Source of the DNA: Escherichia coli
GTDB lineage: Bacteria; Pseudomonadota; Gammaproteobacteria; Enterobacterales; Enterobacteriaceae
DNA: 64,000 nucleotides
Assembly (NCBI RefSeq): GCF_050320075.1
Contig: NZ_CP190019.1
Direction: 5' to 3' (one strand)
Positions 42,001-45,000 of the stretch are shown one piece after another; the first letter of the stretch is position 1, and each line of letters starts with the position of its first letter. The position numbers are program-made.

Positions 42001-45000
42001 CCTTCCTTACTGTCATGGTGTGCCGGGAACCGCCGAGCCACGAGATTATGAGTAGCCCCTGAACAGAAACGTCACGATAATAGCCGTGAACGCCACCAGG
42101 CCCATTAAATCCCTTGCGTATTTGCAGCCCGTGCTGTCCAAACCTGTACCAGGTCCGATCAACACGCTCCAACCATTGAGGTACGAAAACACCGCCTGAC
42201 CGAACAAAAAATGCGTGATAGCCGCCGCAGCCATGACGCCGGAATCGTCAGACAGGCTGTAGCTGTTGACCATTGCCCTGTACGCCTGCATCTGAAATGG
42301 CTATTGCCCTGATGGGAGCCGGCTTTTCAGCCACCGACACCAGCGATGCCGTCAATATTCTTTACCCGATAACCATGACCGTACAAGCTAACAAGGCCTG
42401 GCAAGCCAGCGGACTTAAAAAGTCTTTTTTTCTACCATCCCACAAAAAAGTTCGTGGTGGAGAAAAGATAAGCTATGCAAGGCTTTAGGAGACGTGGTTT
42501 TTCAGGATGACGAAGAACGATTCGGCGCTAGGTGCAACATAGGTGCATCGCACGAGCGCTAGGAACGGCGAAAAAAGGCGGACGTGGCGAAATCGGTAGA
42601 CGCAGCAGACTTTAAAATTGGAGTGCCCGCGGGGAAATCCGCGGAGTAGAACCGCTCAAAGTCGGGGAACGCTAACGGGCAATACCCTAAGCCAATCCCG
42701 AGCCAAGCCCCTTCGGGGGAAGGTGTAGAGACTGGACGGGCGGCGCCTAAAGCCTTCGGGCAATGGCGAAGGGACAGTCCAGACCACGAACGTCATCAGA
42801 CGGCGGCGAAAGTCGAGGTGGTACGAAAATCTGCTTCTCTGTGAGAGTACGGGTTCGAGTCCCGTCGTCCGCACCACAAAGCCAAACATCCCTGCGATGA
42901 TCGACCTCTGGGCGTTTGGTCGTGAGCCCGCCACCCTCGCGCTACGCTTTGCGCAGGCGTCGAAGGCGATCAGGTGCGCCCATCGATTCCGTCGAGCACC
43001 ATCGCTGCGAGTTCATCGCTGGTGTGTGCACCACTATCGAGAACACGGGTTGTGCATGGAAGCCGTTCCCTTGCGGCCAAGCATCGGGCGACATTCGCTA
43101 ATCGCCACTCTCGAATCTCCGCATTTCGATTCGGGTCAGGATGCATGGTCTGGTTCGCGATCCGGTGACGCAATAGGTCCTCGTTGAGCGTCAGAAAGAT
43201 GTGCAGCAGCTGATCGTCGATCCGCCTTACCCCGTCGAGTATCTCAGTCAGATAGTCCGGGTGCACGAGCGTCATTGGGATGATGATGTCCTGCGAGTAA
43301 TTCCTTCGAATCTCCCTGACCGCCGCGATCGTAAGTCCCCTCCACAAGGGGAGATCCTGATAGTCTCCGCTCGCTGGCATGGGGACCGTTTCTTTCACCA
43401 CGAACCCGATTTCCTCGGGGTCAAAGATCAGCGATTTGGAACGCCGATCGCGCAGCCGCTTAGCGAGCGTCGTCTTTCCGGCGCCGAAAGGTCCGTTGAT
43501 CCAGATTATCATTGTCGACGGCCTCTAACCTGAAGGCTCGCAAGAGCGCTCGACGGCCTCGTGCGGAGGCACGATCGGAGTGGTTCCGAAATGCTTCTCA
43601 AGATAGGTGACGCCGAACGTCACGATGTCCTGCGCGTCGAACAGGTAGCACTGAGCAAAGCCCACGACACCTTCTCGATGGCGACCGAGCTTCACGTAAG
43701 CATTTGCTATAGTTTCAACCGCATCCGGCTTTCCTTCGATAGCAAAGCAATCGAGAATGCCGTTTGAATCGTAATCCGATGCCGTTTTCCAGGCGACTTC
43801 ACCGTCTCTTCCAAGCATCGGCATCTCATACGTCACCCACCGTTTGTTGGGGATATCGGCAACCGCCTCGGCGTAGTGCAATGCGGTAACGGAGTTTAGC
43901 GGCGCACCCAACAGCAGGGCCTTCCCGCCAAGGCGAACGAACCGCTCGACGGGCGATCCTTCCCCCAAGGCGTGACCGAGTTCGTGAGGCTCCGTCAGCG
44001 TTTCAGCCAGCGGACCAACCGCGACCATCGATGCATCGGGGTGCGCGCTGCGCCGCGCGCCGGGGGCTTGAACCAGAAATTGATTCAGCAGGCCGAACCC
44101 ACGGTAAGTCCCGGCTGTTGCGGGATCGAACGGCAGCCAGGTACGGCGGGCTTCGTCATCCAGCCGAGCGCCATTCAGAGTCTCCTCGTAGGGTGATCGG
44201 TCCCACGACGCGTATCCCATCACAGTGCCAGTCGGCCCAACCGCGGAGCGTAACGCGGCAACGACCGTCTCCGCTCCTCCTTCGACCGGACCAATCGCTT
44301 TAAGTGAGGCATGCACCATCAAGAGGTCACCGGTTTGGACTCCGAGTTTTTGAAGCGCCTCCGTTATTGCCTTCCGCGTATGCATCGCGATATCTCCTCT
44401 AAACTGCAAAACACTATACGCTGATGAATCCCCTAATGATTTTGGTAAAAATCATTAAGTTAAGGTGGATACACATCTTGTCATATGATCAAATGGTTTC
44501 GCGAAAAATCAATAATCAGACAACAAGATGTGCGAACTCGATATTTTACACGACTCTCTTTACCAATTCTGCCCCGAATTACACTTAAAACGACTCAACA
44601 GCTTAACGTTGGCTTGCCACGCATTACTTGACTGTAAAACTCTCACTCTTACCGAACTTGGCCGTAACCTGCCAACCAAAGCGAGAACAAAACATAACAT
44701 CAAACGAATCGACCGATTGTTAGGTAATCGTCACCTCCACAAAGAGCGACTCGCTGTATACCGTTGGCATGCTAGCTTTATCTGTTCGGGCAATACGATG
44801 CCCATTGTACTTGTTGACTGGTCTGATATCCGTGAGCAAAAACGGCTTATGGTATTGCGAGCTTCAGTCGCACTACACGGTCGTTCTGTTACTCTTTATG
44901 AGAAAGCGTTCCCGCTTTCAGAGCAATGTTCAAAGAAAGCTCATGACCAATTTCTAGCCGACCTTGCGAGCATTCTACCGAGTAACACCACACCGCTCAT

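What the first reader, a model, noticed from the sequence alone, without database searches (positions are those of the whole stretch)
42290..44409. tmrB and aac(3)-II lie on a fragment that still carries the donor's tRNA-Leu locus
The aac(3)-II and tmrB genes are contiguous with the intron-containing tRNA-Leu and a PD-(D/E)xK-like gene, all on one higher-GC segment bounded by an IS element (39208-40825) and an IS10 remnant. tRNA genes are common island integration sites, so this segment probably preserves part of the original chromosomal context of the resistance pair. A group I intron in tRNA-Leu(UAA) would narrow the donor lineage.
Basis: inference. Interest (0 to 1): 0.55.

Follow-up and report, generated by a model that had tools for sequence, protein, structure and literature searches.

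The report
Passenger intron-tRNA beside gentamicin resistance genes
A real, intact alphaproteobacterial tRNA-Leu gene split by a self-splicing-type intron sits unannotated next to the gentamicin-resistance gene aac(3)-IId on over a thousand clinical plasmids, but the DNA around it is a patchwork from at least two bacterial lineages, not one preserved piece of the donor chromosome.

Summary
Window 42578-42876 (+) is a tRNA-Leu(UAA) gene interrupted between U34 and A35 by a 213-nt group I intron (42613-42825). It lies next to tmrB (42970-43512, -) and aac(3)-IId (43525-44385, -). The segment is bounded by ISCfr1 (39208-40825) and an IS10 remnant (from 44421).

- 40826-42272 holds DUF3883/PDC-S36 and a truncated small ORF. 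It comes from a Pseudomonadaceae-like defence island.
- 42273-42887 is a 615-bp alphaproteobacterial tRNA-Leu fragment. The tRNA plus intron is 93-95% identical to chromosomal copies in Hyphomicrobiales and Rhodobacterales.
- 42888-44419 holds aac(3)-IId-tmrB with a little native flank. The pair is a syntenic chromosomal locus in Sinorhizobium/Ensifer-like Rhizobiaceae (86% nt to Sinorhizobium sp. Sb3).

No native or independently mobilised aac(3)-tmrB locus has the tRNA. A 94.6%-identical Ochrobactrum-type unit follows the window for 82 nt past tmrB, then diverges 11 nt before the tRNA end.

The intron points to Alphaproteobacteria but is too conserved to name a genus. The module itself is the well-known pCTX-M3 aac(3)-IId module. 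The tRNA appears to be unannotated, and a Rhizobiaceae origin for the resistance pair does not seem to be recorded in the literature I could search.

The parts
39208..40825 (-). ISCfr1 (IS1182 family). In this window the transposase is frameshifted into 378-aa and 125-aa ORFs.
   Evidence: It has perfect 25-bp terminal inverted repeats at 39208-39232 and 40801-40825. The window is 99.92% identical to pCTX-M3 over 39150-44420, with one gap; I infer that gap is the frameshift, because pCTX-M3 annotates an intact 456-aa 'IS1182-like element ISCfr1 family transposase'. NCBIfam IS1182 scores 439 against a cutoff of 270 on the pCTX-M3 copy. An ISCfr1-like copy (94.8% identical) sits at the same target after DUF3883 in Stutzerimonas kunmingensis L001.
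40859..41995 (-). DUF3883 (ScoMcrA_N + NOV_C) gene, a candidate phage-defence protein of PADLOC family PDC-S36. It is not part of the aac(3)/tmrB donor context.
   Evidence: PADLOC PDC-S36 matches at E=6e-107. Chromosomal relatives are 84-89% identical at protein level in Stutzerimonas and Pseudomonas. Metagenomic contigs L087-L089 are 94.6% identical at nucleotide level, and there the gene follows a DpdF/GajB-like helicase and a 100-aa ORF.
42046..42272 (-). The 3' three-quarters of a small membrane-protein-like ORF that is 100 aa long in its native setting. Junction J1 (42272/42273) cuts off its 5' end.
   Evidence: The intact 100-aa form (P0282) lies between the helicase and DUF3883 in L086-L089. 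Homology to the window runs 42272->40821 and stops abruptly at 42272 in the base-level alignment.
42273..42887 (+). A 615-bp alphaproteobacterial fragment that carries the tRNA-Leu(UAA) locus. It is bounded by junction J1 (42272/42273) and junction J2 (42887/42888).
   Evidence: Homology to alphaproteobacterial chromosomes covers about 42405-42877: L048 at 90.4% over 449 nt and L064 at 87.5%. The fragment occurs in 1304 PLSDB plasmids, 1284 of them at >=99% identity. It is always found in the same mosaic.
42405..42577 (+). Conserved leader upstream of the tRNA, which includes the hairpin plus T-run ACTTAAAAAGTCTTTTTTT at 42413.
   Evidence: It aligns with the upstream regions of L048, L064, L038, L057, L053, L026, L025 and L029. 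The hairpin and T-run motif was located.
42578..42612 (+). tRNA-Leu(UAA) exon 1, from the acceptor 5' strand to U34.
   Evidence: In-silico splicing gives an 86-nt tRNA-Leu(taa). This exon is identical to exon 1 of 33 of 53 chromosomal homologues.
42613..42825 (+). Group I intron of 213 nt, inserted between U34 and A35 and ending in G.
   Evidence: Rfam Intron_gpI scores 36.8 bits, E=1.3e-6. RNAalifold recovers P1-P9 with covariation and a splice-site U.G in 53/53 sequences. The tRNA-plus-intron unit (42578-42876) has no mismatch at 193 near-invariant alignment columns and no private substitutions.
42826..42876 (+). tRNA-Leu(UAA) exon 2, from A35 to the encoded CCA.
   Evidence: Homology to every chromosomal tRNA-Leu locus ends at 42876/42877.
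42888..42969 (-). Native sequence downstream of tmrB (82 nt), shared with the Ochrobactrum-type unit.
   Evidence: L080-L085 align with the window from 44419 to 42890 at 94.6%. The base-level alignment shows agreement down to 42888 and divergence from 42887.
42970..43512 (-). tmrB-like AAA_33/AAA_18 ATPase, 180 aa.
   Evidence: Closest relatives are 97% (Brucella/Ochrobactrum P0249), 88% (L008), 86% (Sinorhizobium sp. Sb3 cluster), 81-83% (S. meliloti, Ensifer), then Paracoccus, Geminicoccus and Microvirga. No curated NCBIfam family passes its cutoff; the best is Gar/GrdA at 26 bits.
43525..44385 (-). aac(3)-IId, an aminoglycoside 3-N-acetyltransferase of 286 aa.
   Evidence: NCBIfam AAC(3)-II scores 541.5 against a cutoff of 480. 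AMRFinder annotates it as aac(3)-IId at 100% identity in PLSDB. Native syntenic homologues exist in Sinorhizobium sp. Sb3 (286 aa) and in L008-L010 and L014.
44386..44419 (-). Native 34-bp region upstream of aac(3)-IId. The native fragment ends at 44419.
   Evidence: The alignment with L080, L008, Sb3 and pCTX-M3 shows native sequence starting at GTATAG. In pCTX-M3 it abuts the Tn2/Tn3 IRR; in the window it abuts IS10.
44421..45267 (+). IS10 (ISVsa5) remnant, followed by IS26.
   Evidence: The IS10 terminal sequence CTGATGAATCCCC starts at 44421. RNA-OUT lies at 44466-44535 with 98.8 bits. PGAP annotates 'IS4-like element ISVsa5 family transposase, incomplete' in an identical copy. The IS26 transposase ORF is at 45268-45990.

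Best explanation
The DNA between ISCfr1 and IS10 (40826-44419) is a three-piece mosaic that was assembled once and then spread as the aac(3)-IId module of pCTX-M3-type plasmids.

Piece C (42888-44419) is aac(3)-IId and tmrB with 34 bp of native upstream and 82 bp of native downstream sequence. It was captured from a Sinorhizobium/Ensifer-like member of the Rhizobiaceae. In that clade the gene pair is a vertically inherited locus downstream of a conserved ECF-sigma / EF-hand / BA14K neighbourhood.

Piece B' (42273-42887) is a 615-bp fragment of an alphaproteobacterial chromosome. It carries an intact tRNA-Leu(UAA) gene with its conserved leader. The gene is interrupted between U34 and A35 by a 213-nt group I intron of the classical Leu.3Ug type.

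Piece A (40826-42272) is a truncated small ORF plus a DUF3883/PDC-S36 defence gene from a Pseudomonadaceae-like defence island, still attached to the ISCfr1 copy that targets a conserved site just downstream of DUF3883.

The tRNA is a passenger. It is undegraded and by sequence should self-splice, but it has no role in resistance.

Shown: the existence and intactness of the tRNA and intron, the three ancestries, and both junctions at base resolution. Inferred: that the tRNA/tmrB junction (42887/42888) arose after or during mobilisation, for example in an intermediate alphaproteobacterial host, and does not reflect the donor's own gene order.
For: tRNA and intron.

Alphaproteobacterial ancestry of the tRNA:
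- 54 genome hits, nearly all Alphaproteobacteria.
- 93-95% identity to Enterovirga, Phyllobacterium, Pseudochelatococcus, Pelagibacterium and Roseovarius.
- The leader is also conserved.

Rhizobiaceae ancestry of aac(3)-tmrB:
- The synteny Metal_resist - ECF sigma - EF-hand x2 - BA14K - aac(3) - tmrB is seen in L008-L010, L014 and Sinorhizobium sp. Sb3. S. meliloti has the same neighbourhood with tmrB only.
- Gene divergence (85%) matches flank divergence (86%).
- Cluster members are named Sinorhizobium, Ensifer and Rhizobiaceae.
- Homology to the window covers only 44419->42972.

Junction J2:
- L080-L085 (94.6% nt) follow the window to 42888 and then diverge.
- L080's continuation carries a tRNA-Gly 3' fragment that best matches Sinorhizobium and Shinella tRNA-Gly genes. 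It also carries a hairpin motif that lies directly after tmrB in S. meliloti and Sb3.

Junction J1 and piece A.

Single assembly:
- 2417 plasmid records match part of 40830-44420, and 1025 of them cover at least 80% of it.
- 1304 records carry the tRNA piece, 1284 of them at >=99% identity.
- All 10 distinct contexts of the internal 63-aa ORF show the same mosaic.
- The window is 99.92% identical to pCTX-M3.
Against: - The true aac(3)-IId donor (>=99% identity in a native context) was not found. The closest native locus is 86% identical, and the 94.6% unit is itself mobile (IS, relaxase and Tn3 contexts). The donor's own downstream sequence is therefore unknown.
- Both B' and C are alphaproteobacterial, so a single capture would be more parsimonious than two.
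- The region downstream of tmrB varies among relatives and repeatedly contains tRNA-like remnants. L008 has a degenerate tRNA-like 3' end about 100 nt after tmrB, in the same orientation as the window's tRNA. L080 has a tRNA-Gly fragment.
- The motif that links L080's downstream sequence to Sinorhizobium is short: 32 nt, E about 1e-4.
- No IS end, inverted repeat or target duplication marks J1 or J2, so how the joins formed is unknown.
- Expression and splicing in Enterobacteriaceae are untested, and the simple scan found no sigma-70 consensus promoter.
Confidence: 0.6

Rival explanations
1. In the unsampled aac(3)-IId donor, tRNA-Leu(UAA) lies convergently about 93 nt downstream of tmrB. On this view 42273-44419 is one captured chromosomal fragment, and only the DUF3883/ISCfr1 part is foreign.
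For: - Both parts are alphaproteobacterial.
- One capture is more parsimonious than two.
- Relatives vary immediately downstream of tmrB and carry tRNA-like remnants there. This fits a tRNA-associated hot spot.
- No mobile-element scar is visible at 42887/42888.
Against: - No native locus (Sb3, S. meliloti, L008-L010, L014) has the tRNA-Leu next to tmrB, and neither does the 94.6% unit.
- None of the 54 tRNA-Leu loci has tmrB or aac(3) in its flank.
- No Sinorhizobium or Ensifer species matched the intron-tRNA pattern in the species-representative genomes.
- The L080 continuation past the breakpoint has Rhizobiaceae-type features.
Confidence: 0.3
2. The tRNA-Leu marks the attachment site of a genomic island. 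On this view aac(3)/tmrB rode on an integrase-driven island inserted at the tRNA 3' end, and the tRNA is the attB/attL remnant.
For: tRNA genes are common integration sites (established knowledge). The breakpoint lies close to the tRNA 3' end, 11 nt away.
Against: - The breakpoint is outside the tRNA, not within its 3' part.
- The window holds no second copy of the tRNA 3' end even with 3 mismatches allowed.
- No integrase lies in or next to the segment.
- In native genomes the pair sits in a conserved chromosomal neighbourhood, not on an island.
Confidence: 0.05
3. The tRNA/intron call is spurious, or the gene is a decayed pseudogene of no significance.
For: Default ARAGORN finds nothing. The Rfam score is below gathering, 36.8 against 50. 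PGAP annotates only hypothetical ORFs there.
Against: - The spliced product is a canonical tRNA-Leu(UAA).
- 53 homologues show covariation.
- The window copy has no mismatch at 193 near-invariant columns and no private substitutions.
Confidence: 0.02

Closest known systems
The aac(3)-IId (aacC2)-tmrB module of pCTX-M3 (NC_004464.2) and its many descendants
   Same: The window is 99.92% identical over 39150-44420. The order is the same: ISCfr1 - DUF3883 - two hypothetical ORFs - AAA ATPase (tmrB) - aac(3)-IId.
   Different: In the window the ISCfr1 transposase is frameshifted, and IS10 replaces the Tn2/Tn3 IRR that abuts the module in pCTX-M3. Neither the PLSDB/RefSeq annotation of pCTX-M3 and an identical E. 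coli copy nor the papers I could search mention the tRNA or the intron.
The classical tRNA-Leu(UAA) group I intron of cyanobacteria and plastids, type Leu.3Ug in the nomenclature of Williams 2020 (bioRxiv 10.1101/2020.01.27.920355)
   Same: The insertion site is the same, CUU/intron...g/AAAA, between U34 and A35. There is a U.G wobble at the 5' splice site and a terminal G.
   Different: This intron is 213 nt and G+C-rich, and its relatives are alphaproteobacterial. From memory, cyanobacterial introns are about 250 nt or longer. The seven low-GC relatives in viral contigs are only 53-63% identical.
The Azoarcus tRNA-Ile(CAU) IC3 intron (recalled from memory, not tested here)
   Same: It is a small (~205 nt), G+C-rich bacterial tRNA intron. 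As I recall its sequence, it shares core motifs such as CCGAGCCAAGC and GAAGGTGTAGAGACT(A/G)GACGG.
   Different: It sits in a different tRNA at a different position in the anticodon loop, in a betaproteobacterial host. No alignment was made here.
IS-mediated capture of chromosomal resistance genes together with co-mobilised flanking DNA, such as the ISEcp1-blaCTX-M capture from Kluyvera; criteria in Ebmeyer et al. 2021 (PMC7782503)
   Same: A resistance gene was taken from a chromosome where it lies in conserved synteny without mobile elements, with short native flanks carried along.
   Different: The closest native locus is only 86% identical, so the origin is resolved to clade level and not to species. 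The capturing element for the IId lineage is not preserved. That review lists no AAC(3)-II origin and no alphaproteobacterial origin.

Membership tests
tRNA-Leu(UAA) interrupted by a group I intron (Leu.3Ug class) | Removing the intron yields a canonical type II tRNA cloverleaf with anticodon UAA. | tested here: met
   ARAGORN calls the 86-nt spliced product tRNA-Leu(taa). In the consensus fold the anticodon stem closes across the intron in 53/53 sequences.
tRNA-Leu(UAA) interrupted by a group I intron (Leu.3Ug class) | The intron lies between U34 and A35. The 5' splice site is preceded by a U that forms a U.G pair in P1, and the intron ends in G. | tested here: met
   The sequence reads CUU / T...ACG / AAAA. 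The U.G pair (alignment columns 36 and 49) is kept in 53/53 sequences. This matches the definition in the Williams 2020 preprint.
Group I intron (Rfam RF00028) | The score reaches Rfam's gathering threshold. | tested here: not met
   The score is 36.8 bits against a gathering score of 50, with E=1.3e-6. Williams 2020 notes that the Rfam seed alignment contains no bacterial introns and used cutoffs of 18-20 bits.
Group I intron (Rfam RF00028) | A conserved catalytic-core helix set supported by covariation. | tested here: met
   The RNAalifold consensus across 53 sequences has 87 pairs, 25 of them with compensatory changes. The core motifs AGCCAAG and GGTGTAGAGACTRGACGG are invariant or nearly so. 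The pseudoknotted pairings were not modelled.
Group I intron (Rfam RF00028) | Self-splicing activity with a guanosine cofactor. | not testable with these tools
   This needs an in vitro transcription and splicing assay, or RT-PCR from cells that carry the plasmid.
AAC(3)-II aminoglycoside acetyltransferase | The NCBIfam NF033080 score is at or above the curated cutoff. | tested here: met
   The score is 541.5 bits against a cutoff of 480. AMRFinder calls it aac(3)-IId at 100% identity.
TmrB (tunicamycin-resistance ATP-binding protein) | A curated family match, or a demonstrated tunicamycin-resistance function. | tested here: inconclusive
   Only the generic Pfam domains AAA_33 and AAA_18 match. 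The best NCBIfam hit is Gar/GrdA at 26 bits against a cutoff of 170. The name 'tunicamycin resistance protein' is the label used by source databases. Function was not tested.
ISCfr1 / IS1182 family insertion sequence | An IS1182-type DDE transposase flanked by terminal inverted repeats. | tested here: met
   The inverted repeats are 25 bp and perfect. NCBIfam IS1182 scores 439 against 270 on the intact pCTX-M3 copy. The window copy is frameshifted.
Recently mobilised ARG with an identified origin taxon (criteria as in the Table 1 columns of Ebmeyer et al. 2021) | The gene lies in conserved synteny, without mobile elements, in the proposed origin and in related species. | tested here: met
   The same neighbourhood is seen in Sinorhizobium sp. 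Sb3, L008-L010, L014 and S. meliloti (tmrB only). No IS or integrase is called immediately next to the pair in those loci. Gene and flank divergence are concordant.
Recently mobilised ARG with an identified origin taxon (criteria as in the Table 1 columns of Ebmeyer et al. 2021) | High nucleotide identity between the mobile copy and the chromosomal copy in the origin species. The accepted origins quoted from that table are 95% or higher. | tested here: not met
   The best native locus is 86% identical. The 94.6% copy in Brucella/Ochrobactrum is itself on mobile elements.
tRNA-associated integrative genomic island | A tyrosine or serine integrase, plus a direct repeat of the tRNA 3' end at the far border. 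| tested here: not met
   No integrase is present in the segment. The window has no second copy of the tRNA 3' end with up to 3 mismatches.

The most novel reading that the evidence does not exclude
Two linked readings remain open.

(a) The clinically dominant gentamicin-resistance gene family aac(3)-II, with tmrB, originated in Sinorhizobium/Ensifer-like soil and rhizosphere Rhizobiaceae. It then passed through another alphaproteobacterial host, leaving the tRNA-Leu fragment as a footprint, and a Pseudomonas-like host, leaving DUF3883/ISCfr1, before reaching Enterobacteriaceae. Among the origins tabulated by Ebmeyer et al. 2021, this would be the first alphaproteobacterial origin of a major mobile resistance gene.

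(b) The hitch-hiking tRNA-Leu(UAA) is transcribed and self-splices in Enterobacteriaceae. It would then be a functional group I intron and an extra UUA-decoding tRNA in about 12% of complete E. coli genomes.
Probability: 0.35. Interest if true: 0.65.

Novelty: new member of a known kind. Interest (0 to 1): 0.5.

Why it matters
The module is among the commonest gentamicin-resistance units in clinical Gram-negative bacteria. Its central stretch (42173-42969) is present in 656 of 5426 complete E. coli genomes, and 2417 PLSDB plasmids match part of the module. Even so, annotation pipelines miss a complete intron-containing tRNA gene inside it.

The tRNA and the native synteny together point to Alphaproteobacteria as the source. 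More specifically, they point to Sinorhizobium/Ensifer-like Rhizobiaceae for aac(3)-II/tmrB, a family whose origin is not in the curated list of known ARG origins.

The mosaic of Rhizobiaceae, other alphaproteobacterial and Pseudomonadaceae-like pieces gives a testable itinerary for how a soil-bacterium gene reached enterobacterial plasmids.

It also shows that physical contiguity and similar GC content within an IS-bounded segment do not prove common ancestry.

Tried and rejected
- **Default ARAGORN** on the window and on the downstream regions of native loci found no tRNA. The intron defeats it, and in intron mode it miscalls the anticodon.
- **Looking for the tRNA next to tmrB in relatives** gave nothing. 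Rfam at gathering threshold found no hits on L008-L014. blastn and tblastn of all fetched loci showed no tRNA-Leu near tmrB and no tmrB or aac(3) near any of the 54 tRNA-Leu loci.
- **The first block boundary at about 42015** was an artefact of comparing with Stutzerimonas loci that lack the small ORF. It was corrected to 42272/42273 using L086-L089.
- **The metagenome scan** with a pattern from native sequence upstream of aac(3) found nothing. That collection evidently lacks the relevant samples.
- **An exact look-up of the 63-aa ORF** inside the tRNA piece, meant to expose a native context, returned only the same mosaic.
- **A search for the L080-type downstream sequence in PLSDB** matched only tRNA-Gly genes.
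- **Terminal repeats or IS-end mimicry at J1 and J2**, and the ends of the IS element in L080, were inspected without a convincing result.
- **The simple promoter and terminator scan** around the tRNA found nothing.
- **Literature searches** for tmrB with tRNA, group I intron or rhizobial names found no paper that notes the tRNA or the origin.
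Full report
**1. What is in the sequence**

ORF listing and family searches confirm the genes.
- aac(3)-IId lies at 43525-44385 (-). NCBIfam AAC(3)-II scores 541.5 against a cutoff of 480.
- A tmrB-like AAA_33 ATPase lies at 42970-43512 (-).
- A DUF3883/NOV_C gene lies at 40859-41995 (-).

The left boundary is an IS1182-family element, ISCfr1. It occupies exactly 39208-40825 and has perfect 25-bp terminal inverted repeats. The right boundary is an IS10 end at 44421, with RNA-OUT at 44466-44535.

Default ARAGORN finds no tRNA anywhere in the window. Rfam's group I intron model matches 42603-42795 on the + strand at 36.8 bits, E=1.3e-6, below the gathering score of 50. The flanks read as the two halves of a tRNA-Leu(UAA). 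Removing 42613-42825 (213 nt, preceded by U, ending in G) joins 42578-42612 to 42826-42876. ARAGORN calls the 86-nt product tRNA-Leu(taa) with an encoded CCA.

**2. The RNA is real, conserved and undegraded**

I built a gapped pattern anchored on both exon ends and on the universally conserved AGCCAAG core. A relaxed version found 7 distant relatives (53-63% identical) in low-GC viral contigs. A version with stricter anticodon-stem anchors found 54 loci in the species-representative genome collection.

Nearly all 54 are Alphaproteobacteria:
- Hyphomicrobiales and other orders: Mesorhizobium, Phyllobacterium, Rhizobium, Paramesorhizobium, Aquamicrobium, Chelatococcus, Camelimonas, Methylobacterium, Enterovirga, Azorhizobium, Jiella, Aureimonas and Reyranella.
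- Rhodobacterales: Gemmobacter, Paracoccus, Rhodovulum and Roseovarius.

The window's copy is 95.4% identical to Enterovirga aerilata and to Phyllobacterium salinisoli, 95.3% to Pseudochelatococcus contaminans, and 80-95% to almost all the rest. At 193 near-invariant alignment columns it has no mismatch, and it has no private substitution.

The RNAalifold consensus of 53 sequences recovers the cloverleaf, with the anticodon stem closing across the intron, and helices P1-P9. The splice-site U.G is kept in 53/53, and 25 of 87 pairs show compensatory changes. The insertion site, CUU/...g/AAAA, is that of the classical Leu.3Ug type.

**3. The segment is ordinary and abundant, but the tRNA is not annotated**

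- 2417 PLSDB plasmids match part of 40830-44420, and 1025 of them cover at least 80% of it.
- 1304 plasmids carry the tRNA piece, 1284 of them at >=99% identity.
- Window 42173-42969 occurs in 656 of 5426 complete E. coli genomes, at 607 plasmid and 86 chromosomal places.
- The window is 99.92% identical to pCTX-M3 over 39150-44420.

PGAP and PLSDB annotate only two small hypothetical ORFs where the tRNA lies. I found no paper that mentions the tRNA in this module.

**4. Ancestry of aac(3)-tmrB**

Apart from the plasmid variants, the closest TmrB relatives are alphaproteobacterial. Their contexts show a conserved neighbourhood: Metal_resist - x - ECF sigma - x - EF-hand - EF-hand - BA14K - (DJ-1/PfpI) - aac(3) - tmrB. 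It appears in these places:
- metagenomic contigs of 122-176 kb (L008-L010) and L014;
- Sinorhizobium sp. Sb3 (L102, GCA_001461705.1);
- S. meliloti, which has the same neighbourhood with tmrB but no aac(3).

Cluster members are named Sinorhizobium sp. Sb3, S. meliloti, Ensifer sp. B1-9 and Rhizobiaceae. Divergence of tmrB between these genomes (85%) matches that of the shared flanks (86%). The locus therefore looks vertically inherited.

The window aligns with these chromosomes only from 44419 to 42972-42978, at 84-86% identity. That span is the two genes plus 34 bp upstream. Ebmeyer et al. 2021 list no origin for AAC(3)-II and no alphaproteobacterial origin.

**5. Is the tRNA the donor's neighbour of tmrB?**

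No native locus has a tRNA-Leu downstream of tmrB. None of the 54 tRNA-Leu loci has tmrB or aac(3) in its flank.

Independently diverged mobile variants were informative.
- L077 (96.6%) is cut inside tmrB by an IS91-type element.
- L079 (95.4%) has an IS3-family element starting 10 nt after the tmrB stop.
- A unit found in Brucella (Ochrobactrum) intermedia and anthropi, and on other mobile backbones, has a TmrB that is 97% identical to the window's. This unit (L080-L085) aligns with the window from 44419 to 42890 at 94.6% identity.

At base level the L080-type unit and the window agree for 82 nt past the tmrB stop, to 42888. They diverge from 42887, which leaves 11 nt before the tRNA 3' end. 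The spacer therefore belongs with tmrB, and a breakpoint (J2) separates it from the tRNA.

L080's continuation contains a 47-nt 3' fragment of tRNA-Gly(GCC), closest to Sinorhizobium and Shinella tRNA-Gly genes. It also contains a hairpin motif that lies immediately after tmrB in S. meliloti and Sb3. This is weak but positionally consistent evidence that L080's version is the native-type one.

On the other side, L008 has a degenerate tRNA-like 3' end about 100 nt after tmrB, in the same orientation as the window's tRNA. The downstream region varies among relatives. The true IId donor was not found. I therefore rate secondary junction against native adjacency at roughly 2:1.

**6. The DUF3883 side is foreign**

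DUF3883 relatives are chromosomal in Stutzerimonas and Pseudomonas at 84-89% amino-acid identity, within defence or mobile islands. The 75/81-aa ORF next to it turned out to be the truncated 3' part of a 100-aa ORF. In L086-L089 that ORF lies between a DpdF/GajB-like helicase and DUF3883. The window is 94.6% identical to these contigs from 40821 to 42272, where homology stops abruptly. This is junction J1 at 42272/42273.

DUF3883 matches PADLOC candidate defence family PDC-S36 at E=6e-107. ISCfr1 lies at the same target, |CGGCC-AAAAG-CGGCC, in the window and in S. kunmingensis L001, although the adjacent DUF3883 genes are about 16% diverged. I take this as site-specific targeting, with ISCfr1 and DUF3883 arriving as one unit.

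**7. The tRNA piece**

The tRNA piece is thus only 615 bp long (42273-42887). Homology to alphaproteobacterial chromosomes covers about 42405-42877, which is the tRNA plus a conserved leader of about 170 bp. The remaining 132 bp on its left has no identified relative.

All ten distinct contexts returned for the 63-aa ORF inside this piece show the same mosaic. The mosaic was therefore assembled once. The window holds no att-type repeat of the tRNA 3' end and no integrase, which argues against an integrative-island origin.

**8. Upstream boundary**

In pCTX-M3 the native sequence, starting at GTATAG (window 44419), abuts the Tn2/Tn3 IRR. In the window IS10 has replaced all but one base of that IRR.

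**9. Verdict**

The tRNA is real and points to Alphaproteobacteria, the same class as the resistance pair's native home. But the segment is a mosaic of at least three pieces from at least two lineages. The tRNA's adjacency to tmrB is not seen in any native or independently mobilised relative, and the intron is too conserved to resolve the donor below class or order level.

The module itself is already known. What is new is the recognition of an intact intron-containing tRNA inside it, and the Sinorhizobium/Ensifer-like native locus of aac(3)-II/tmrB.

Noticed in passing
L064:3711-3760, L038, L057, L029 (about 195 nt upstream of their tRNA-Leu genes); window 42413-42431: In a subset of alphaproteobacterial loci (about 4-6 of 50), a copy of the tRNA-Leu 5' half lies about 195 nt upstream of the real intron-containing gene. 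The copy has the acceptor strand, the D arm and an intron-less anticodon-arm-like hairpin ACTTAAAAAGTC, followed by a T-run. It looks like a truncated tRNA whose anticodon arm doubles as a terminator. The window keeps only the hairpin and T-run. Its function is unknown; it could be an attenuator, a small RNA, or a relic of an intron-less gene copy.
   Followed up: partly
window 40801-40860; L001:9137-9180; L002 and L087 (empty sites): An ISCfr1-like element is inserted at exactly the same target, just before CGGCC-AAAAG-CGGCC downstream of DUF3883, in the window and in Stutzerimonas kunmingensis. The two IS copies are 94.8% identical, while the adjacent DUF3883 genes are only about 84% identical. 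This suggests sequence-specific targeting by this IS1182-family element.
   Followed up: partly
L080:7498-11273 (also L081-L085): A unit with an IS transposase (DDE_Tnp_1_4, 451 aa), aac(3) of 291 aa, tmrB and about 730 bp of downstream sequence ends at ...GCGGAGAATTTCTG. Beyond that point the contexts differ (plasmid or ICE backbones with relaxase, T4CP and Tn3). It is found in Brucella/Ochrobactrum and other hosts. It looks like a one-ended transposition unit that is a second, independent mobilisation of an aac(3)-II-like gene.
   Followed up: partly
L080:10882-10930 (- strand); L008:8666-8720 (- strand): tRNA remnants lie downstream of tmrB in relatives. L080 has a 47-nt 3' fragment of tRNA-Gly(GCC). 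L008 has a degenerate tRNA-like 3' end (TGGTGCTGGCGG...TCGAACC). These hint that the region after tmrB is a recombination or integration hot spot in Rhizobiaceae.
   Followed up: partly
window 42970-43512: The best curated-family hit of the tmrB-like ATPase is the Gar/GrdA garosamine-specific gentamicin-resistance ATP-binding family, at only 26 bits against a cutoff of 170. The gene is natively paired with aac(3), with overlapping or near-abutting reading frames, in Rhizobiaceae. It may act on aminoglycosides and not on tunicamycin.
   Followed up: no
window 46890-49107: A group II intron is present. Rfam group-II-D1D4-7 matches from 46890 at 89.8 bits (the hit is cut off at the end of the region I searched), followed by a 555-aa ORF at 47440-49107, presumably the reverse transcriptase/maturase.
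   Followed up: no
window 37046-38350: A 434-aa ORF on the - strand lies in a 63-66% GC stretch upstream of ISCfr1. From the look of its sequence I guess it is a TniA/Tn402-type transposase, which would mark the module as embedded in a complex class 1 integron or Tn21-type resistance region. No family search was run on it.
   Followed up: no
L077:1000-1050 compared with L090 (pCTX-M3):6648-6782: Two different joins connect Tn2/Tn3 (blaTEM) sequence to aac(3)-II. In pCTX-M3 the complete Tn3 IRR abuts the native sequence at GTATAG. In the Salmonella IncFII variant L077, Tn3 sequence downstream of blaTEM is fused at ...AAAAGGA|GATATC, a few bases before the aac(3) start codon, apparently through a deletion at the microhomology AGGAG.
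   Followed up: partly
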